A DNA stretch of 64,000 nt from Acidobacteriota bacterium (lineage in GTDB: Bacteria; Acidobacteriota; UBA6911; RPQK01; JAJDTT01): assembly GCA_965263035.1 (NCBI GenBank), contig OZ253580.1, forward strand, positions 1,280,001 to 1,344,000. Direction: 5' to 3'. Shown here piece after piece: positions 25,704-34,241 of the stretch. Every line of letters begins with the position of its first letter. The first letter of the stretch is position 1. A program made the position numbers and the translations under genes. The notes under the pieces are model-generated. The model did no database searches. It was not told where the DNA came from and saw nothing but the letters and a program-made list of their open reading frames with translations.

Positions 25704-28013
25704 ATGTTCAGACACCTGCAACGAGTGTTGGCGGCGGCGGCCGTGGTGCTGCCTTCGCTAGCCTCGACGCCTCTGGACCGTCCGCCCCGGCAGGATGAGC
25801 AGACGTTCCTGCTGCTGCATCTGGACGAGCCGGACGAAGGAATAGCGGTCGCCGACAAGGTGCTGGTGGATCCCGTCTACGTGCGGATGGAGGCCCGGCA
25901 CCAGCAGGGACGTTTCGGTGGAGCTCTGAAGTTCGTAGGTCGGCCAGGTCTCCGCCAGTGTCTGTTGGTTTCTCTGCCCCAGCCGCAATATCTGACCCGT
26001 CACACCCGCAAGCGTCCACCCATCCGCTTCGCGGATGTCGAAGTGCCGGTGGTCCTCATGGACAACCAGAGGGGCTACACCATCGAGTTCTGGATGCTTC
26101 CCCAGGCCCGGCAGGCGCAGGTCATGCTGGCGGGGGTCAACTCGGCGACCTGGGTCCCCACATCCTCCTGGAAGGTGGAAATCACCGGGCAAGGGCGGTT
26201 GCGTTTCGCCAGCGGAGCCGGCCTCCACCGTTTTTACATGGAGAGCGAGAAGCCAGTCGCCATCGGCCGCTGGACCCACGTGGCCGTGGTCTGCGACAGG
26301 GGCAACGTGGGCATTTATCTCAACGGCCGCCGGTCCGGTCCGTTTCGGCGGATGGAACTGGCAGAGCGCCAGGGGGTGGGCGAGCCCGGAAGCGACGGCT
26401 CCATCCTGTGTGTCGGCGGTCCCGGGCCGGACGCCCAAACCGGCTTCTTCGACGGCCTGATCGATGAGGTCCGCCTTTCCACGACGCCGCGCCGTTTCGA
26501 GCCCGATCCCGCCATCCTGATCGGCAACGGCAAGGAGCTGTTCCTGGATGATTTTCTGCTGGCTCGAATGGAGGGGATCGAACGGGTCGTGAACCAACCT
26601 GAGCGCTACCCGGGCAACCCGCTGCTGACGGCCAAGGGCGACTGGGAAGCCGGCTCCATGCAACAGTTCGGAACCCTCTATGATCCCCGGCTGCAATTGT
26701 TCCGAACCTGGTACCGGGCCAACAACAGCGAGGACAACCAGATGAGCATGTGCTACGCCGTGAGCCGCGACGGCCTTCGGTGGGAGCAGCCGGTGCTGGG
26801 TCTGGCGGAATATCGAGGCTCGACGCGGAACAACATCGTCACGCCGAAGCGGTCCTTCTTCGTGTTCCTGGACCCTCTGGCCCGACCAGGCGAGGGGAAC
26901 ATCTGCGCCAGCGCGAAGATGCTTTACGGGTCCGACCGGGGGACCTTCAAGCAGATCCTCCTGCGCTCCCCCGACGGACTCCACTGGCCCTGGGGGCCGG
27001 TGCGGAACATGAGCGGCTACCAGGGTTGGCCCTACAGCCGCATCCGCCGCCAGGAAGCCGTCATGGCCACCGACCGGCCGCTCATGCAGAATCCAGTCTA
27101 CTTCGGCCGCCTCGACAAGATGACGGTGATCGCTAACGAGGGCGAGGGGCTGAAGGACCAGGTCTACGCCCGCGTCGGGTGGGACCTGACCCACTGGCAG
27201 GATCCTCTGCTGACGGACCTGAAGAGGAGCGAAAAGAACAATCTGGGCTGGTACGGCATCCGGACCAAGGACGAGTCCAGCGTCCTGGTGGGATTCACCG
27301 ACGCCTACCACAATGAGCAGAATCCGGATCCCCGCTGGAGGAGCCTGGGGCCCGAGGCCTACCATGACAAGCCCAGCGCCTGGCTCGACATTCAGCTCAT
27401 CAGTTCGCGCGACGGCTACCGCTGGCAGCACGTGGCGGACCAGGATGTGTTCCTGCCGGTGGGTCCGGAGGGCGCCTGGGACGAGGGGATGGTGCTGTAC
27501 GCACAGGCCGTCGAGCCTCCGGGATCGGACCGGATCTACCTCTACTACCAGGGCTCGCCCGTCCGCCACGACATGACTGATGCCGGATGGCTCCAGTGGC
27601 ACGCCCGTTCCCAACGACCCTCAAACAACATGGGCGTCGCGTTTCTGAGGAAGGAGGGCTACGTCAGCCTGGAGGTGAAGCCGGATGCGGCCGAAGGCGT
27701 GGTCGAAACCCGGCCGCTCCGATACCGGGGACGGCACCTCTTCGTCAATGCCGACGCCTCGAAGGGCGCGGTCCAGGTGGAACTCTGCGACGAGACGGGG
27801 AATCCCCTGTCCGGGTTCGGACGGAAGCGGGCCCTGCCGTTGACGACGGACCTGACGAACCATCTCATTCGCTGGGGCCAAGAGAGCGACGTCTCGCGGT
27901 TTGCGGGCCAGGCTGTGGTCCTTCGTTTCCACCTGACACCGGGCGCAAAATTGTACGCGTATCGCTTTGGTGGGCCCGACCCCCACCTGGATCTCGAGCG
28001 CCGGGAGCCGTAG
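25704..28013 (+). CDS. LamG/concanavalin-like domain + beta-propeller GH-like protein (paralog 2)
   Basis: Signal peptide; TIEFW, WTHVAVV, FDGLIDEVRLS (LamG); KELFLDD, CYAVSRDGLRW, EGYVSL, KLYAYRF. Confidence 0.8.
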   Translation: MFRHLQRVLAAAAVVLPSLASTPLDRPPRQDEQTFLLLHLDEPDEGIAVADKVLVDPVYVRMEARHQQGRFGGALKFVGRPGLRQCLLVSLPQPQYLTRHTRKRPPIRFADVEVPVVLMDNQRGYTIEFWMLPQARQAQVMLAGVNSATWVPTSSWKVEITGQGRLRFASGAGLHRFYMESEKPVAIGRWTHVAVVCDRGNVGIYLNGRRSGPFRRMELAERQGVGEPGSDGSILCVGGPGPDAQTGFFDGLIDEVRLSTTPRRFEPDPAILIGNGKELFLDDFLLARMEGIERVVNQPERYPGNPLLTAKGDWEAGSMQQFGTLYDPRLQLFRTWYRANNSEDNQMSMCYAVSRDGLRWEQPVLGLAEYRGSTRNNIVTPKRSFFVFLDPLARPGEGNICASAKMLYGSDRGTFKQILLRSPDGLHWPWGPVRNMSGYQGWPYSRIRRQEAVMATDRPLMQNPVYFGRLDKMTVIANEGEGLKDQVYARVGWDLTHWQDPLLTDLKRSEKNNLGWYGIRTKDESSVLVGFTDAYHNEQNPDPRWRSLGPEAYHDKPSAWLDIQLISSRDGYRWQHVADQDVFLPVGPEGAWDEGMVLYAQAVEPPGSDRIYLYYQGSPVRHDMTDAGWLQWHARSQRPSNNMGVAFLRKEGYVSLEVKPDAAEGVVETRPLRYRGRHLFVNADASKGAVQVELCDETGNPLSGFGRKRALPLTTDLTNHLIRWGQESDVSRFAGQAVVLRFHLTPGAKLYAYRFGGPDPHLDLERREP

Positions 28014-29508
28014 CATTTTCAGGGTCCCTGGTAACCGCACCAGTGGAGGGCTGTATTCCGCGGCTCTACGCCGGGCACGAACGTTTCCTCTTCTCCTGCT
28101 CTCGGCTTTCCTGGCCGGATTCTCCTTCGGATGCACCCGGCAGCTCGAGCGGCCGAACATCGTTTTGATCCTGGCCGATGACCTGGGCTGGAACCAGTTG
28201 GGCTGCTACGGAAGCAGTTTCTACGAGACTCCCAACCTCGACGGCATGGCTCGAGAGGGGATGCGTCTCACCGACGCCTACGCGGCCAGCCCCGTCTGCT
28301 CCCCGACTCGAGCCAGCATCATGACGGGCAAGTACCCGGCGCGACTCCACGTCACCAAGTTCATCTCGCCGCAGGACTACGTCCCCAACCCGAACGCCAA
28401 GCTGTTGGATCCCGACTGGACACCCTATCTGCGCTTGGAGGAGGAGACGATCGCCGAAGCCTTGAAGAAGCTGGGGTACGTGACGGCCGGCTTCGGAAAA
28501 TGGCACCTCAGCCGCGTCAAGACGCCTCCCGAGAGCCTGCCCTTCAATCCGGACAAGCAAGGTTTCGACCAGCACTTCGTAACCTACAAGCCGGTCCCAT
28601 CCATGGCCAGGAAGTGGCAGACGCCGGAGGACGATGCCCACAACGTGGGAATCATCACCGAGAAGTCCCTGGAGTTCATGGAGAAGAACCGTGAGAGGCC
28701 CTTCTTCCTCTTCGTTTCGCACAACAGCATTCACACCCCCCTGGTGGAGAAGAAGGCTCTGATCTCCAAGTACCGGAGGAAGCCGGACGTCGACTCTCCC
28801 ACCAACCACCCGGTTATCGGAGCCATGATCGAGACCCTGGATCGCAGTGTCGGCCGGCTGCTGGCCAAAATCGACGAGATGAAGCTGACCGAGAGGACCC
28901 TCGTGCTTTTCTATTCCGACAACGGAGGATTGGATTGGACCGCGACCGAGGGGCAGATCGCCGCCAACGATCCGTTGCGGGCCGGAAAGGCCGACCTCTA
29001 CGAAGGGGGAATCCGGGTGCCCTTGATCGTCCGCTGGCCGGGCCGAATCCCCCCCGGCCGCGTCTCCGGGGAACCTGTCAACAGCGTGGATCTCTTTCCC
29101 ACGCTGCTGGAGGCAGCCGGAGGCACCGAGACGGGCAAGGACACCGACGGCATGAGCCTGCTGCCGCTTCTCACGGGGCCCGTGGTCCCCGGCCGGGACG
29201 CGCTCTTCTGGCACTACCCCCACTACCACAAGTTCGGAGCCTTCCCTTCGAGCGCCATCCGGAAGGGTGAGTACAAACTGATCGAGTGGCACGAGGCCGG
29301 GATCTACGGATCGGACAATCGGTACGAACTCTACGACTTGGTGGACGATCTGGGGGAGTCTCGAAATCTGGCCTCCGTCCTGCCGGAGAAGACCCGGGAA
29401 CTGGCAGCCGACCTGGAGAACTGGCGGCGCTCGGTGGGAGCCCAGATGCCGAAGCGCAACCCCGACTATCGGCCGGAAGGCCAGCCGCGGGCGCGTGACC
29501 GGGAGTAG
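27967..29508 (+). CDS. Sulfatase (S1, Cys-type)
   Basis: RPNIVLILADDLG, VCSPTRASIMTG, GKWHL, SDNGG, YEGGIRVP; true start uncertain and probably downstream of 28013. Confidence 0.9.
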   Translation: MVGPTPTWISSAGSRSIFRVPGNRTSGGLYSAALRRARTFPLLLLSAFLAGFSFGCTRQLERPNIVLILADDLGWNQLGCYGSSFYETPNLDGMAREGMRLTDAYAASPVCSPTRASIMTGKYPARLHVTKFISPQDYVPNPNAKLLDPDWTPYLRLEEETIAEALKKLGYVTAGFGKWHLSRVKTPPESLPFNPDKQGFDQHFVTYKPVPSMARKWQTPEDDAHNVGIITEKSLEFMEKNRERPFFLFVSHNSIHTPLVEKKALISKYRRKPDVDSPTNHPVIGAMIETLDRSVGRLLAKIDEMKLTERTLVLFYSDNGGLDWTATEGQIAANDPLRAGKADLYEGGIRVPLIVRWPGRIPPGRVSGEPVNSVDLFPTLLEAAGGTETGKDTDGMSLLPLLTGPVVPGRDALFWHYPHYHKFGAFPSSAIRKGEYKLIEWHEAGIYGSDNRYELYDLVDDLGESRNLASVLPEKTRELAADLENWRRSVGAQMPKRNPDYRPEGQPRARDRE

Positions 29509-30187
29509 ATCGATGCCGGGAACCGGAAGAGACTCGGGGCGGCTCCGATTTCAGCCATGGGCGGGACCGCGAGGAAAGGTGGCCATCCATCTCGCCCTGG
29601 TTCTCGGCGTGGCCTTTTCCGCCGGCTGGCCGGCAGAAGGCCTCGCCGCCGCCATCCCCATCGGCCGGGAAAAGCAGCTACTCTGGGACGACTATCTGAT
29701 CGAAACGCTCCATAACACGGGGTTCGTGCTCAACCAGGCCGAAAAGGCCCCCAACAACCCGGTGATTCGGCAGGACCGGCCCTGGGAAGGGAATCTGATC
29801 CGGGTCGCCACCGTGTTCTACGACGAAGACCAGGGCCGGTTTCGGCTCTGGTATACGTCAGAGAACGTGAAACCTTCTCCCGGCGACCGCTGGGAGAGGT
29901 CCGGGCAGATCGTCTGTTACGCCACCTCCAGGGACGGATACCGGTGGACAAAACCCAACGTCGGCCGGGTGGACTTCAACGGATCGACCCGGAACAACAT
30001 CCTGGACGGCCGGAGCTGGCCGGGATTCAAGGGTGGGATCATCCGCGATGCCCACGATCCCGATCCTTCCCGCCGGTACAAGGGGTTGGTCATGAGCGTG
30101 GCGGGACCGGAGCCCAACTCGACCTCCAGTCCGGGAATGCGCTTCGACCTCTACTACTCGTCCGATGGCTTCGAGTGGGAGCCCTAT

Positions 30188-30345
30188 CAGCCCGTGGCAA
30201 AAGTCGTCGCGGCATTCGACCGTCCCTGCATCCCGGCGGACTGCGTTGCGATTCGGTCACATACTCCCGGTATGCTCCCTCATCGCGCCTTGTCCGGCGG
30301 GCGCAGGAACGGTCTCGGTGCTCGCGAGACTTTCACCACGGACTG
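30188..30345 (-). mobile_element. MITE family B, copy 2, in-frame inside a CDS
   Basis: Reverse complement of 24786-24943; CTAT/CTAT duplication; 158+4 = 162 bp = 54 codons with no stop. Confidence 0.9.
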
Positions 30346-30798
30346 CTATGCCGGCAACCCCGTCATCGACTGGGGAGAGAGACGGGGCCGCTGGGGCCCG
30401 ACGGCATTGATGGGCTGGGATCCGATACGCGGAGTGTACACGGCCCATATGGAGGTCTGCCGTCATCGGAGATGTCCCCGGAACCGGCGTCTGATCGGAC
30501 GGGCCGAAAGCCCGGACCTGATCCGCTGGACCGAATCCGTTCCCATCCTGGTTCCCGATTCCGGCGATCCCCCCGACACCGAGTTCTACAGCTTCTGGGC
30601 GATTCCCTACCACGGCAGGATCGCGGGAATGCTCTGGACCTTCCGGACCACGAACACGGTCATGTACCCTCAGTTCACCTTCAGCCGCAACGGAATCCAC
30701 TACGACCGGCGGTTTCGCGAGCCCCTGATTCCCCTGGGCGCGAACGGCGCCTTCGACAGCGTGCTGCAGCCCGTCGTCCACGGCGAAAGGATATTCAT

Positions 30799-32042
30799 GG
30801 GGATTATATGCCTAAGTGCCGAGAATTCAGGCTGATGGTTTACAATTCCTACCATGAAAGGCCACGCAACTATCCAGTGCAGAGCCAAGCTGTCCAAGGG
30901 TGGAATCCGGCGGTTGGACGGGGTGAGGTCCATCCTGAATCGGCTGTACAACGCTGCACTGGAGGAACACAGGACGGCCTGGGAATCCGAGCAACGCGGC
31001 GTGACCCTGTACGATCAGATGAAGGGGTTGACCTCCAAAAGGAAGGAGGATCCGGAGGGGCTCGGGTCAGTGGCGGTCAAGGCGGAGCGGGGGATGCTGG
31101 TTCGGTTGGACCGGGCCTTCAAGGCGTTCTTCCGTCGCTGCAAGGCGGGGGAGAAGCCGGGGTATCCTCGATTCCGGCCCATTGCGAGGATGGAGACCAT
31201 CGACGTCGTCGACCCCAAAGCGACCATGGTGAAGAAGCGCGCTCGGGGCTACGCCATCCGGCCCAAGGGCTTTCCGACGATCCGGATATTTCCCTCCCGG
31301 CCGTTGCCGGACGGATGCCCGTTGAAAGCGTTGCGGATTGTCCGCAAGCCGAACCGGGTGTATGTGGACCTGACCTACGAGGTGGAGAAGCCGCCGCTAC
31401 CGAAATGCGAGTCTTCGGTGGGGATCGACCTGGGAGTCCGCAAGCGAGCGGTGCTGTCCACGGGTGAGAGGATCGAACGGAATCGACGGGACTGGGGGGA
31501 GATCCGAAAGCAGCAGAGAAAGGTCTCCAGGTGCAAGAAGATTTCCAAGACCAGACGGAAACGGATCGTACAGCTATCTCGGCTCCGTCACCGGGAATCG
31601 GTCCGAAACCGTAATGCCTGCCATCGTCTCTCCACCAGGATCATTCGTGAGCACGGTCTGATCGCTGTGGAGAAACTGAACATCCAAGGGATGGTGACGA
31701 AGGGCTCGAAGAAGAAGGGGCTGAATCGAGAAATAATGACGCAATCATGGAGGCTTCTGCGGAATCAACTCCAGTACAAGGCAGAATGGGCCGGTCGGAA
31801 GTTCGTAGAAGTGAATCCCGCATATACATCGCAGGACTGCCACCGGTGCGGCGCCCGCCACGATCCAGGACGGAGCGAAACCTTCCGGTGCAGGGCCTGC
31901 GGACTTGGAATGGACAGGGACCACAATGCCGCCCTGAACATTCTCAGGGCTGGGGTTCTTGCCCTGGGCACCGGAACGTATCTCGTTGGGGAAAGCGTGG
32001 TGCCAGAACTGTATGCCAATGGCACTTAGGTATATAAGCCCC
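30799..32042 (+). mobile_element. Non-autonomous TIR element (IS1595/ISNwi1-like ends) carrying tnpB
   Basis: Left end GGGGATTATATGCCTAAGTGCC, right end GGCACTTAGGTATATAAGCCCC (20/22 inverted match); ATATTCAT duplicated at 30791-30798 and 32043-32050; no transposase. Confidence 0.88.
30854..32029 (+). CDS. tnpB: RNA-guided endonuclease TnpB
   Basis: RLYNAAL, GYPRFR, RuvC-I GIDLG, RuvC-II AVEKL, LQYKAEWAGR, zinc finger TSQDCHRCG...FRCRACG, RuvC-III DRDHNAALNI. Confidence 0.93.
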   Translation: MKGHATIQCRAKLSKGGIRRLDGVRSILNRLYNAALEEHRTAWESEQRGVTLYDQMKGLTSKRKEDPEGLGSVAVKAERGMLVRLDRAFKAFFRRCKAGEKPGYPRFRPIARMETIDVVDPKATMVKKRARGYAIRPKGFPTIRIFPSRPLPDGCPLKALRIVRKPNRVYVDLTYEVEKPPLPKCESSVGIDLGVRKRAVLSTGERIERNRRDWGEIRKQQRKVSRCKKISKTRRKRIVQLSRLRHRESVRNRNACHRLSTRIIREHGLIAVEKLNIQGMVTKGSKKKGLNREIMTQSWRLLRNQLQYKAEWAGRKFVEVNPAYTSQDCHRCGARHDPGRSETFRCRACGLGMDRDHNAALNILRAGVLALGTGTYLVGESVVPELYANGT

Positions 32043-32062
32043 ATATTCATCTACTACCGGGG
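31945..32062 (+). ncRNA. Predicted 3' part of the TnpB omegaRNA scaffold plus flank-derived guide
   Basis: Stems CAGGGC/GCCCTG, GGCACC/GGTGCC, an AGAA linker, stem TGTATGCC/GGTATATA; loop TGGGG complementary to terminal CCCC(A). The 5' end is unknown. Confidence 0.55.
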
Positions 32063-32489
32063 GCGGAACTGGCGGGCTCCGGGGCAACTGGACCGGCTGG
32101 GCGAAGCGAGGGCTCAGGGAGCCGTCGGCCTGGCGGTGCTGCCGCTGGACGGCTTCATCTCCCTGGACGGAGCCGCCACGCCCGGCGATTACAGCGAAGT
32201 GGTCACGCGCTCCTTCGTCTTCTCCGGAAACATCCTCCTCCTCAACGCGCAGGCCGGGATACCGTCCCAAGGCAACGTGGCCGAGGTCCGTGTGGAGATC
32301 CTCCGGCCCGACTCCTTCCCCGTCCCGGGCTACAGGTTCGAGGAGACCGACCTGGTGGACGCCGCGGGTCCGGCGAGCGCCGCGAGCTGGCGGGGTGGAG
32401 ACGGGGACGTGGGCCGGCTGGCCGGCCAACCCGTCAAGCTCAAGTTCTACTTCCGGCACACCAAACTGTACTCCTTTCAATTCCGGTAA

Positions 32490-32647
32490 CAGTCCGTGGT
32501 GAAAGTCCCGCGAGCACCGAGACCGTTCCTGCGCCCGCCGGACAAGGCGCGATTCGGGAGCATACCGGGAGTATGTGACCGAATCGCAACGCAGTCCGCC
32601 GGGATGCAGGGACGGTCGAATGCCGTGACGACTTTTGCCACGGGCTG
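32490..32647 (+). mobile_element. MITE family B, copy 3 (158 bp)
   Basis: Near-identical to 24786-24943; GTAA/GTAA duplication that includes the upstream TAA stop codon. Confidence 0.88.
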
Positions 32648-32657
32648 GTAAGGACCG

Positions 32658-34241
32658 ATGAAGGCTCCCCTTGCGGCAATCCTATCCTTGTCTCTCGGCG
32701 GTCAGTGTCTCGCCGAGCTCATCGAGATCGGCACCCGGAAGCAGCTTTTCTTCGACGACAACCTAATCGAAAGCAGGACCGGGGCCCGGCAGGTGCTGAA
32801 TCCGGCCGTCAAGCTGGCCGGCAATCCCGTGGTCCGGCAGGACAGGCCCTGGGAAGGCAACGACATCAAGTACGGCAGCCTCGTCTACGATCCCGAACGA
32901 AGGCTATTCAGGATGTGGTACTGGAGCCAGACGGTCGAAAAGAGGGACAAGGAGGATCACTACGACGCCAGGAAAGCCTGCTACGCCGTCTCCCGCGATG
33001 GCTACCACTGGGAGAAGCCGGCGCTGGGCCTGGTGGAGTTCGAGGGATCGACGGCAAACAACATCCTGGGCGAAGAGAGCTACCCCCAGGAGAAGCACGG
33101 CACGACGACCGAACCCGGCAGGTTCAAGGGCGGCATCTTCCTCGACCCGGTCGAAAAGGATCCCCGGAAGAGGTACAAGGCGTTCTCCCGCTCCTGGGCC
33201 GAGGGGGCGGTACCGGGGACCGATCTTCCCAAGGGCTTCCGGGTCTGGAATCTCTTCACCTCCCCCGACGCATTCCGCTGGACGCCCTACCCCGGGAATC
33301 CCGTCATCGAGCCGAAGGGTGTCCCGAAACGACATCCGGAGGGGGAACCCTGGGCTAGACGGAAGGGCTATCAAGGATACCTCTGGGGACCCACGTCGAT
33401 GATGGGGTGGGATCCGATTCGTCAAGTCTATGCCGCGTACATGGAGAACTGCCAACACAAGCGATGCCCCCTCCGGAAGCGGGTGATCGGCCGGGCCGAA
33501 AGTCCCGATCTCGTCAACTGGAGCGAACCCTCGACCCTTCTCGTTCCCGACGGCCAGGACCCGCCGGACCTCCAGTTCTACGCCCTGCATGTCTCCGCCT
33601 ACGAGGGGTATTACGTGGGCATGTTGTGGTGTTACCGGGCGTCGAGCCCGGCCACCCGATGGATCCAATTCGTCTTCAGTCGAGACGGGATCCGGTGGGA
33701 CCGCCGCTATCGCCGCCCCTTCATCCCGCTGGGCCCGCCCCCGGAATTCGATTCCGCCGTGATCGCCGCTCTGGCTCCCGTCGTCCACGACAACGAGATC
33801 TTCTGCCTCTACTACGGAAAGAACTTTCGTGACCGGCGGTTGGATCAGATCGGAGGTCCCGCCGTGGGAGCCATGGGCCTGGCGGTGCTGCCCCTGGACG
33901 GTTGGGTCTCGCTCGAGAACGACGATCAGACCCGCAACCGCTACGCGGAGGTGGTCACCCTTCCCTTCACGTTTTCGGGAAGCCGGCTCCAGGTCAACGT
34001 CGGCCCCCAGGTTGATGGAGAGAGCGCCCGCTTCAGCTTGAATGTGGAAATCCTGGCACCGGACCACTTCCGGGTGAAGGGCTACAGCTTCGAGGAGTCC
34101 GATTCCATCACTCGGGGAGGGGTGGCCCGGGTCGCAAGCTGGAATGGAGAGGACGATCTCAGCTCGTTGGCCGGGAAGCCGATCAAGCTGAAGTTCTACC
34201 TGAAGAACGCCCGGCTCTTCTCCTACCAGTTCGTCCCCTGA
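32658..34241 (+). CDS. Secreted beta-propeller GH-like protein (paralog 4)
   Basis: Signal peptide; IGTRKQLFFDD, CYAVSRDGYHWEKP, MENCQHKRC, DGWVSL, RLFSYQF. Confidence 0.78.
   Translation: MKAPLAAILSLSLGGQCLAELIEIGTRKQLFFDDNLIESRTGARQVLNPAVKLAGNPVVRQDRPWEGNDIKYGSLVYDPERRLFRMWYWSQTVEKRDKEDHYDARKACYAVSRDGYHWEKPALGLVEFEGSTANNILGEESYPQEKHGTTTEPGRFKGGIFLDPVEKDPRKRYKAFSRSWAEGAVPGTDLPKGFRVWNLFTSPDAFRWTPYPGNPVIEPKGVPKRHPEGEPWARRKGYQGYLWGPTSMMGWDPIRQVYAAYMENCQHKRCPLRKRVIGRAESPDLVNWSEPSTLLVPDGQDPPDLQFYALHVSAYEGYYVGMLWCYRASSPATRWIQFVFSRDGIRWDRRYRRPFIPLGPPPEFDSAVIAALAPVVHDNEIFCLYYGKNFRDRRLDQIGGPAVGAMGLAVLPLDGWVSLENDDQTRNRYAEVVTLPFTFSGSRLQVNVGPQVDGESARFSLNVEILAPDHFRVKGYSFEESDSITRGGVARVASWNGEDDLSSLAGKPIKLKFYLKNARLFSYQFVP

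What the first reader, a model, noticed from the sequence alone, without database searches (positions are those of the whole stretch)
30781..30820. TAM puzzle created by the target duplication
Seen: the predicted guide starts with the 8 bp TSD, so it fully matches the empty allele (preceded by GAAAGG) and the element's own right flank (preceded by AAGCCCC), and matches 8 nt at the left junction. Known: canonical TnpB TAMs equal the TnpA insertion motif, but DDE targeting would not normally fix the bases 5' of the TSD. Inference: this nuclease may have a very relaxed TAM, or avoid self-cleavage by rejecting CCCC. If the guide instead began after the TSD, the TAM would be TTCAT and the donor would be self-targeting. 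A relaxed TAM would be useful for genome editing.
Basis: inference. Interest (0 to 1): 0.75.

Follow-up and report, generated by a model that had tools for sequence, protein, structure and literature searches.

The report
TnpB riding an IS1595 transposon
A small RNA-guided nuclease gene (tnpB) sits inside a cut-and-paste transposon that needs another element's enzyme to move, and nearly every surviving copy lies just after a G, which looks like a one-letter targeting signal.

Summary
Window 30799-32042 is a 1,244-bp element with 22-bp terminal inverted repeats (TIRs), an 8-bp target duplication (TSD, ATATTCAT) and one gene, an intact 391-aa tnpB.

The ends match those of IS1595-family DDE transposase elements in the same genome, so it is a non-autonomous IS1595-type element, probably moved in trans.

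A covarying pseudoknot pairs a hairpin loop in the 3' end of tnpB with the last six bases of the element.

The base just 5' of the TSD is G in 42. In 20 transposase-carrying control copies it is G in 7 (or 6 in the other orientation). There is no mirror-image bias at the other side. A weaker A occurs at -5.

Best reading: a minimal G-ended TAM. The invariant C-ended right TIR protects the donor. Insertions lacking the G do not persist.

All of this is computational. Cleavage and the TAM are untested. TnpB in DDE transposons is already in print; the IS1595 link and this TAM signature were not found in my searches.

The parts
29495..30798 (+). 5' part of the host gene interrupted by the element. 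It continues at 32051-32489.
   Evidence: open frame; the in-silico empty allele is one 580-aa frame and gives a single alignment to homologues across the junction.
30786..30790 (+). Candidate TAM window AAAGG. G at -1 is base 30790 and A at -5 is base 30786, directly 5' of the left TSD copy.
   Evidence: -1 is G in 42 of 43 insertions; -5 is A in 23 of 43. Controls lack both signals.
30791..30798 (+). Left copy of the 8-bp target site duplication, ATATTCAT.
30799..30820 (+). Left terminal inverted repeat, IS1595-type.
   Evidence: The resident IS1595 transposase elements have nearly the same TIR.
30854..32029 (+). tnpB, 391 aa, with intact RuvC D192/E273/D356 and a zinc finger.
   Evidence: (PF07282, PF01385, NF040570 at 215.6 bits).
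31945..31966 (+). Guide-RNA hairpin (stem CAGGGC/GCCCTG). Its loop holds GGGGTT (31952-31957), the 5' strand of the pseudoknot.
   Evidence: Compensatory changes in the stem were seen by eye in alignment A2.
32021..32042 (+). Right terminal inverted repeat. Its last 6 nt, AGCCCC (32037-32042), are the 3' strand of the pseudoknot and the end of the guide-RNA scaffold.
   Evidence: 98.9% of cells paired, 2 pairs with compensatory change, 0 of 500 shuffles as high; 38 of 43 elements pair 6 of 6.
32043..32050 (+). Right copy of the TSD, which is the first 8 nt of the predicted guide.
32043..32061 (+). Predicted guide (TSD plus flank, about 18-19 nt). The length is only hinted at.
   Evidence: contigs from two RNA libraries of one study reach 32060 and 32061; one ends there. 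This is a weak hint only.
32051..32489 (+). 3' part of the interrupted host gene.

Best explanation
The element is a non-autonomous IS1595-family insertion sequence whose only cargo is tnpB and its guide RNA (omegaRNA). Resident IS1595 DDE transposases move it in trans by recognising the shared TIRs, and each insertion makes an 8-bp AT-rich duplication.

The guide RNA is read from the 3' end of tnpB through the right TIR. Its scaffold closes with a pseudoknot on the last six bases of the element. The guide is therefore the right TSD copy plus the flank (possibly from TSD base 2 onward).

That guide matches the empty site. In the empty site the target is preceded by whatever lay 5' of the TSD. 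TnpB accepts it only if that base is G (with A at -5 helping).

The same sequence at the element's own right junction is preceded by the transposase-fixed ...CCC end, so the donor is spared.

Because only insertions that land after a G can be restored or driven by TnpB cutting followed by recombination, those are the copies that persist.

Shown: the anatomy, TIR sharing, TSDs, the intact catalytic triad, pseudoknot covariation and the -1 G bias. Inferred: trans-mobilisation, cleavage, the TAM role of the G, and the retention filter.
For: - TnpB identity: PF07282 (E 5.9e-26), PF01385 (E 3.2e-18), NF040570 at 215.6 bits against a cut-off of 100. D192, E273 and D356 are invariant in 8 of 8 aligned relatives. 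The nearest solved structure is ISDra2 TnpB, E 2.5e-31 over residues 31-376.
- IS1595 link: a 334-aa ORF in 1,762-bp elements of the same genome hits PF12762 (E 5e-38) and NF033547 (178.7 bits, cut-off 75). Those elements end in GGGGATTATATACGAAAGTGCC, against GGGGATTATATGCCTAAGTGCC here, and have 8-bp TSDs. In the related genome G048 the two kinds of TIR agree at 23 of 24 bases.
- Scaffold end: loop-to-terminus pairing is kept through three states, GGGGUU:AGCCCC, GGGACU:AGUCCC and GGGAAU:AUUCCC. 98.9% of cells pair, against 15.6-83.3% when the partner is slid. 0 of 500 shuffles reach the observed covariation. 38 of 43 elements pair 6 of 6.
- TAM signal: among 43 non-redundant insertions with a clean TSD from 12 genomes, -1 is G in 42, and +1 is unbiased (A11 C13 G11 T8). 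Fisher tests against 20 transposase-carrying controls give p = 9e-8 (7 of 20 G) and p = 1.4e-8 (6 of 20 G). Within the set, -1 G against +1 C gives p = 1.4e-11.
- All four clades show the G: 13/13, 9/10, 13/13 and 7/7.
- -5 is A in 23 of 43, p = 1.7e-5 uncorrected, against 3 and 4 of 20 in controls.
- The Caldilineaceae TIRs are identical over the outer 15 bases. A transposase has little with which to tell the two ends apart there.
- The right end is ...CCC in 42 of 43 elements.
- Precedent for G-rich TAMs: ISXfa1 (IS607) depletes GGG (PMC10711439, passages read).
Against: - There is no experiment. Cleavage, the guide 3' end and the TAM are all inferred.
- As far as I recall, a TAM carried mostly by one base would be shorter than any characterised TnpB TAM.
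- The retention filter needs frequent excision, and I found no call or paper that establishes the IS1595 transposition mode. The review PMC13565253 (passages) argues that cut-and-paste DDE elements gain little from such a nuclease.
- The youngest pairs (99.84% and 99.25% identical) already sit after a G. A slow filter predicts this only weakly.
- TSD base 1 is A in 36 of 43, and in 23 of 23 in this genus. A guide that simply starts at that base does not explain this.
- Exceptions: one clean-TSD copy has A at -1 (G000 2600571-2601949, with tnpB disrupted at its 5' end). Of six copies dropped for poor TSDs that I looked at, five have G and one has A at the equivalent place.
- 25 of the 43 sites come from two genomes (12 from G048, 13 from G076).
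- The pseudoknot loop is also a copy of the left-end terminus. Its covariation could reflect a protein-binding site rather than RNA pairing.
- One RNA-library contig from another study runs at least 67 letters past the right end at a different copy. One of the two contigs that reach 32060/32061 carries 30 unlike letters after 32060. All RNA-library contigs may derive from DNA.
Confidence: 0.6

Rival explanations
1. The G at -1 (and the A at TSD base 1) is a target-site preference of whichever transposase moves the tnpB elements. It has nothing to do with TnpB's TAM.
For: DDE transposases do have target preferences. The TSDs of both kinds of element share the pattern WWWNNWWW. The youngest copies already have the G. 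The Caldilineaceae chromosome has 87 such termini but no IS1595 transposase by PF12762 at E<=1e-10 or NF033547 at E<=0.01. The enzyme that moved them is therefore unseen and could differ from the controls.
Against: The bias is one-sided: -1 G in 42 of 43 against +1 C in 13 of 43. It follows the tnpB orientation even where the outer 15 bases of the two TIRs are identical. Transposase-carrying copies with near-identical TIRs in the same genomes prefer C at -1 on both sides (9 and 11 of 20). The position lies 9 bases from the element end.
Confidence: 0.12
2. Fanzor-like register. The right TSD copy belongs to the guide-RNA scaffold, the guide starts after it, and the left TSD (AT-rich) acts as the TAM.
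For: This is what is reported for Fanzor1 and for Fanzor2 in cut-and-paste transposons. IS607 TnpB also takes one flanking base into its scaffold (PMC10711439, passages; PMC13565253, passages). TSD base 1 is nearly fixed as A. One RNA-library contig runs well past +18 at another copy.
Against: The pseudoknot closes on the last base of the element, as described for IS200/IS605 TnpB (PMC10711439 passage). TSD bases 4-5 are unconstrained. With this register the occupied site would carry the same TAM and target, so the element would cut itself. The conserved G would lie 9 bases from the guide start. Contigs from two RNA libraries of one study reach only 18-19 nt past the end (weak).
Confidence: 0.1
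3. TnpB here is not a homing nuclease. With the G and the 8-nt TSD match at the left junction, it binds next to its own promoter region and regulates the element or the transposase.
For: The left junction carries G plus an 8-nt seed match to the guide, immediately upstream of the left end and 63 nt from the tnpB start codon. TnpB relatives that act as RNA-guided transcription factors are known (recalled, not looked up here).
Against: The RuvC triad and zinc finger are conserved across the clade, which is not expected for a pure binder. The sigma-70 scan found no promoter-like site on the + strand near the left end (a crude scan).
Confidence: 0.05

Closest known systems
ISDra2 / IS200-IS605 TnpB with its omegaRNA
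   Same: The protein is of the same size and family and is the nearest solved structure. It has the D-E-D RuvC triad. The guide RNA overlaps the 3' end of the gene. The scaffold ends at the transposon boundary with a pseudoknot. The guide is flanking DNA.
   Different: The element here has no Y1 TnpA and no subterminal hairpin ends. It has 22-bp TIRs and an 8-bp TSD. Its TAM cannot be the transposase's target motif. The inferred TAM is essentially one G, against TTGAT.
DDE-associated TnpB branches (Altae-Tran et al. 2023, PMC10691335; listed as ISL2, IS630, IS1031 in review PMC13565253)
   Same: TnpB lies between inverted terminal repeats, with its 3' end within 250 bp of the element end. Solo TnpB elements share ends with transposase-carrying elements, so trans-mobilisation is proposed there too (passages).
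   Different: IS1595 does not occur in the main text of that paper (0 occurrences) or in the review passages I read. No TAM or TSD analysis for the DDE branches appears in the passages I read. The supplements could not be opened.
Fanzor1 and Fanzor2* in eukaryotic cut-and-paste transposons
   Same: An RNA-guided TnpB-family nuclease rides a TIR/TSD transposon, often as a non-autonomous copy, and the TIR is part of the guide RNA (PMC10711439 passages).
   Different: There the TSD is taken into the scaffold and serves as the TAM, and Fanzor1 lacks the pseudoknot. Here the pseudoknot ends at the element boundary and the conserved base lies 5' of a variable 8-bp TSD.
IS607 TnpB ISXfa1
   Same: It has a G-rich TAM (GGG) and a fixed first flanking base that belongs to the scaffold (PMC10711439). 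The near-fixed A at TSD base 1 here may be the counterpart.
   Different: It is moved by a serine recombinase and has no TIRs or TSD. Its TAM is dictated by the recombination core.
IS1595 family insertion sequences (ISNwi1-like ends; the group name is recalled from ISfinder)
   Same: It has an 8-bp TSD and GGGGATTATAT... termini shared with resident PF12762 transposase elements.
   Different: It carries no transposase; tnpB takes its place. Its insertion sites show a one-sided G that the autonomous copies lack.

Membership tests
TnpB (RNA-guided nuclease of the OMEGA type) | Profile match above curated cut-offs | tested here: met
   NF040570 215.6 bits (cut-off 100); PF07282 90.8 bits (26.3); PF01385 66.5 bits (30.5).
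TnpB (RNA-guided nuclease of the OMEGA type) | RuvC D-E-D triad and CxxC...CxxC zinc finger | tested here: met
   D192, E273, D356, C329, C332 and C349 are invariant in 8 of 8. The fourth cysteine is present in 7 of 8.
TnpB (RNA-guided nuclease of the OMEGA type) | Guide RNA from the 3' end of the gene, with a scaffold closed by a pseudoknot next to the guide | tested here: met
   Covarying loop-to-terminus pairing. 38 of 43 elements pair 6 of 6. No Rfam family matched.
TnpB (RNA-guided nuclease of the OMEGA type) | TAM-dependent, RNA-guided DNA cleavage | not testable with these tools
   Only the insertion-site signature is available.
IS200/IS605 insertion sequence | No TIRs, no TSD, hairpin ends, Y1 TnpA | tested here: not met
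   The element has 22-bp TIRs and an 8-bp TSD. It has no other gene.
IS1595 family | 8-bp TSD and termini like those of IS1595 transposase elements | tested here: met
IS1595 family | Encodes a DDE_Tnp_IS1595 transposase | tested here: not met
   The only gene inside is tnpB. Transposase copies lie elsewhere in the genome: 12 with clean TSDs. The element is therefore non-autonomous.
IS1595 family | Mobilisation by that transposase | not testable with these tools
   Inferred from shared TIRs. One genome with many copies has no detectable IS1595 transposase.
DDE-associated TnpB branches of Altae-Tran 2023 | Placement in one of the branches DDE-1 to DDE-6 | not testable with these tools
   The trees and tables are in supplements, which were closed.
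Fanzor-type guide RNA architecture | TSD incorporated in the scaffold, guide starting after it | tested here: inconclusive
   The pseudoknot ends at the element's last base, which argues against. The near-fixed A at TSD base 1 allows one base to be absorbed.

The most novel reading that the evidence does not exclude
TAM reading and integration are coupled. The TnpB-guide RNA complex, or its TAM-reading surface, steers the IS1595 transpososome so that the 8-bp staggered cut is made immediately 3' of a G. Every new copy is then born next to a usable TAM. This would be a guide-independent, TAM-only precursor of CRISPR-associated transposition.
Probability: 0.1. Interest if true: 0.9.

Novelty: new variant of a known kind. 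Interest (0 to 1): 0.7.

Why it matters
- It shows how an RNA-guided homing nuclease can live in a DDE transposon whose target duplication is long and variable. The TAM shrinks to about one base just outside the duplication, and the transposase-fixed last base of the TIR serves as the "not-self" mark.
- The one-sided G in 42 of 43 sites is a population-scale footprint of TnpB activity. It argues that these nucleases do benefit cut-and-paste elements, which a recent review questions.
- The right TIR is triple-coded: it is a transposase site, a pseudoknot strand and, at its inner edge, the end of the tnpB frame.
- If the G-only TAM holds at the bench, a 391-aa nuclease with it would reach far more sites than current TnpB editors.

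Tried and rejected
- Rfam scan of 29000-34000 at E<=1 gave no match.
- Folding the 3' region alone gave z = -1.81, which is uninformative.
- I looked for a natural empty allele in five genomes of the genus. The orthologues are only about 74% identical, so no nucleotide-level empty site was available. I used the in-silico junction and protein alignment instead.
- The metagenome scan returned 80 loci, mostly 25-37% identical TnpBs. With the regex used, none of the loci L106-L122 and L156-L235 showed IS1595-type TIRs with an 8-bp TSD. This added no sites and suggests the association is confined to the clade at 42% identity or more.
- Short deletion derivatives in the Caldilineaceae genome gave no clean test of transposase against TnpB. 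The 372-bp one has no TSD. The 706-bp one has a TSD and the G, but it keeps the guide-RNA end.
- The promoter/terminator scan found one promoter-like site and one terminator-like site, both on the minus strand and no more than the shuffles gave; neither lies where the element would need one.
- RNA libraries gave only contigs, so starts, ends and strand cannot be read. Parts of the stretch without cover are not evidence.
- Supplementary files of papers were closed. The supplement of PMC10691335 may name the DDE families and could include IS1595.
- Not-in-print statement: it rests on searches. For the 9 papers I saw only titles and abstracts in the listing.
- I considered and rejected a 9-bp TSD or a shifted boundary as the cause of the G. 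The right copy is preceded by C in every element and the 8-bp copies match exactly.
Full report
**What is there**

The sequence reads as follows:
- The left flank ends in GAAAGG.
- The 8-bp TSD ATATTCAT follows.
- The left TIR is GGGGATTATATGCCTAAGTGCC.
- A single long gene occupies 30854-32029.
- The right TIR is GGCACTTAGGTATATAAGCCCC.
- ATATTCAT follows again, then CTACTACCGG.

One search reports the TIRs independently. The gene is a TnpB: it matches PF07282, PF01385 and NF040570 at 215.6 bits against a cut-off of 100. The RuvC residues D192, E273 and D356 and the zinc finger are conserved in an alignment of eight relatives. ISDra2 TnpB is the nearest solved structure (E 2.5e-31).

A second copy elsewhere in the 6.2-Mb genome differs at 2 of 1,244 bases and has another 8-bp duplication, ATAAAATA. 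Deleting the element and one TSD copy in silico restores a 580-aa frame. That frame aligns in one piece across the junction to homologues. Every factual statement in the finding checks out.

**What kind of element it is**

IS200/IS605 elements have neither TIRs nor TSDs, so this is not one. Scanning the genome for the terminal motif gave 51 termini.

Eighteen end pairs have a perfect 8-bp TSD. Twelve enclose a 314-334-aa ORF and six enclose tnpB or its remains. The 334-aa ORF is an IS1595-family DDE transposase (PF12762, E 5e-38; NF033547, 178.7 bits against a cut-off of 75).

Its elements end in GGGGATTATATACGAAAGTGCC. In the related genome G048 the transposase element and the tnpB element agree at 23 of 24 terminal bases.

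The tnpB element is therefore a non-autonomous IS1595-type element, most simply moved in trans. I recall the end pattern ggnnatTAT as that of the ISNwi1 group in ISfinder, but I did not test this.

**How wide the association is**

- In 76 genomes of the order (G000 included), close relatives (E<=1e-40) occur only in this genus: 5 of 8 other genomes.
- A scan of species-representative genomes found TnpBs at 42-54% identity in Binatia, Bryobacterales, Alphaproteobacteria, Caldilineaceae, Dehalococcoidia and SAR202 records.
- Except for the two SAR202 loci, where no TSD was found, these sit between GGGAATTATATAC...GTATATAATTCCC ends with 8-bp TSDs.
- More distant TnpBs (25-37% identical) showed no such ends.
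- The Caldilineaceae chromosome has 87 such termini but no IS1595 transposase detectable by two profiles. Its copies are orphans, or are moved by something I did not see.

**Where the guide starts**

I aligned the last 240 nt of 15 diverse elements. This showed a hairpin in the 3' end of tnpB whose loop is complementary to the last six bases of the element.

The pairing is kept through three states: GGGGUU:AGCCCC, GGGACU:AGUCCC and GGGAAU:AUUCCC.
- 98.9% of cells pair, against 15.6-83.3% when the partner is slid by one to three columns.
- Two pairs show compensatory change.
- 0 of 500 shuffles reach the observed covariation.

Across all 43 elements, 38 pair 6 of 6. Four of the five exceptions are one family with a single U-U mismatch. 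The fifth is a copy with a mutated last base. The closing stem also changes compensatorily (CAGGGC/GCCCTG, GGCGGC/GCCGCC, GCGGG/CCCGC, CGGGG/CCCCG; read by eye). The protein follows the RNA here: V becomes N where the terminus is AUUCCC.

A 3' pseudoknot next to the guide, with the scaffold ending at the transposon boundary, is what is described for IS200/IS605 TnpB (PMC10711439, passages).

One caveat applies. The loop is also a copy of the left terminus, so a protein-binding explanation for its covariation is not excluded.

I oriented all elements by tnpB and kept those with a TSD mismatch of at most 1. After removing duplicates this left 43 insertion sites from 12 genomes:

| Genome or group | Sites |
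|---|---|
| G000 | 5 |
| G048 | 12 |
| G042 | 4 |
| G043 | 1 |
| G044 | 1 |
| Binatia | 1 |
| Bryobacterales | 2 |
| Alphaproteobacteria | 1 |
| Caldilineaceae | 13 |
| Dehalococcoidia (three MAGs) | 3 |

The results were as follows:
- The base immediately 5' of the left TSD copy is G in 42 of 43 (1.84 bits).
- TSD base 1 is A in 36. TSD bases 2, 3, 6, 7 and 8 are A or T. Bases 4 and 5 are free.
- The base after the right TSD copy is unbiased: A11 C13 G11 T8.
- The four clades give 13/13, 9/10, 13/13 and 7/7.
- -5 is A in 23 of 43 (p = 1.7e-5 uncorrected).
- In the window's own family, C is absent at -2 and -3 (0 of 13 each).

The one exception has a tnpB disrupted at its 5' end. Of six copies dropped for poor TSDs that I looked at, five have G and one has A at the equivalent position.

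**Controls**

I took twenty transposase-carrying IS1595 copies with the same kind of termini (12 from G000, 8 from G048 and G077).
- Oriented by the transposase gene, -1 is G in 7 and C in 9.
- In the opposite orientation, -1 is G in 6 and C in 11.
- -5 is A in 3 and in 4.

The Fisher tests give p = 9e-8 and p = 1.4e-8. The one-sidedness within the tnpB set (-1 G against +1 C) gives p = 1.4e-11. G precedes 40% of AWWNNWWW sites in the genome.

So the autonomous elements, if anything, prefer C|N8|G symmetrically. The tnpB elements carry a one-sided G that follows the tnpB orientation. This holds even in Caldilineaceae, where the outer 15 bases of the two TIRs are the same.

**Reading**

The simplest account has three parts:
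1. The guide is the TSD plus the flank.
2. In the empty site, the TAM position falls on the bases 5' of the TSD.
3. TnpB needs a G at -1, helped by A at -5. In the window the TAM window reads AAAGG.

The right junction carries the same target but is preceded by the transposase-fixed ...CCC, so the element does not cut itself.

Only insertions after a G could be restored or driven by cleavage and recombination, and that would explain why almost no others are seen.

The filter idea has weaknesses. Nearest-copy identities are mostly 96-99%, but the two youngest pairs (99.84% and 99.25%) also sit after a G. The transposition mode of IS1595 was not established here. The near-fixed A at TSD base 1 suggests that one flanking base may be read by the protein or absorbed into the scaffold, as in IS607 ISXfa1, whose TAM is GGG.

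**RNA evidence**

Four runs were laid, all as contigs.
- Three metatranscriptome libraries from two studies hold parts of the element at 95-100% likeness.
- Contigs from two libraries of one study reach 32060 and 32061, which is 18-19 nt past the right end at this very locus. One contig ends there. The other continues with 30 unlike letters.
- A contig from the other study runs at least 67 letters past the right end of a different copy.
- A DNA run collapses the copies into one contig spanning 30799-32043, the element plus the shared A.

This is at most a weak hint about guide length, and DNA carry-over cannot be excluded.

**Comparison with what is known**

- Altae-Tran et al. 2023 (PMC10691335, passages) describe six DDE-associated TnpB branches with inverted terminal repeats, and solo TnpBs with ends like transposase-bearing elements. 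IS1595 does not occur in the main text. TAMs of these branches are not discussed in the passages I read.
- A 2026 review (PMC13565253, passages) lists ISL2, IS630 and IS1031. It says that in Fanzors the 5' TSD is part of the TAM and the 3' TSD lies in the scaffold.
- Yoon et al. 2023 (PMC10711439, passages) give the same picture for Fanzors and show the one-base shift in IS607.

The present clade solves the same problem differently. It keeps the IS605-type boundary and uses a very short TAM outside a long variable TSD.

My searches for TnpB with IS1595 or ISNwi1 found nothing on this. The supplements were closed, so prior listing of the association cannot be excluded.

**Verdict**

- The element is a new variant of a known kind, a DDE-borne TnpB.
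- The new points are the IS1595 host element, the TIR that doubles as a pseudoknot strand, and the one-sided G signature at insertion sites.
- All functional statements await a TAM-library assay and a transposition assay.

Noticed in passing
window 30182-30348 and 32487-32653: A 167-nt repeat occurs in inverted orientation, 96% complementary, on either side of the insertion. Its end (window 30300-30350) matches dozens of places at 86-100% in five genomes of the genus. It looks like a REP- or MITE-like repeat; one copy lies inside the interrupted gene.
   Followed up: partly
G000 genome-wide (for example C1:8556-8579): The short sequence ...CGCCGCAG AAATTGATCTACTGCG recurs well over 100 times in the genome. 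It turned up as near-matches to the guide and is probably another dispersed repeat family.
   Followed up: no
G076 (Caldilineaceae chromosome; loci L072-L098, L236-L239): The chromosome has 87 IS1595-type termini and more than 20 tnpB elements, but no IS1595 transposase by PF12762 or NF033547. The 1,424-1,445-bp elements carry an extra internal terminus about 186 bp from one outer end. Deletion derivatives of 372 and 706 bp also exist.
   Followed up: partly
G000 autonomous IS1595 copies (for example C1:1740263-1742024) and loci L128-L142: Transposase-carrying copies show a symmetric preference for C before and G after the 8-bp TSD (C at -1 in 9 and 11 of 20 in the two orientations). This is the opposite of the tnpB elements.
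   Followed up: partly
window 31952-31957; locus L023: The pseudoknot loop lies inside codons of the TnpB C-terminal tail. Where the element terminus is ATTCCC the protein reads AGN instead of AGV. The RNA pairing appears to dictate an amino-acid change.
   Followed up: partly
G000 C1:1977082-1978324 (L027) and G048 locus L031: These full-length tnpB copies have different 8-mers at their two ends, so they have no TSD. This suggests recombination between copies or adjacent rearrangement.
   Followed up: no
window 27967-29508, 29495-32489 and 32658-34241: The interrupted 580-aa gene has a 42%-identical paralogue directly downstream and a sulfatase gene (PF00884) upstream. Neither paralogue has a Pfam match.
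   Followed up: no
runs X15-X20: Several holders of the element are metatranscriptome or metagenome runs, two of them labelled sponge metagenome. Relatives of the TnpB clade occur in lineages (SAR202, Caldilineaceae, Binatia, Dehalococcoidia) that I recall as typical sponge symbionts. This hints at exchange within one habitat.
   Followed up: no
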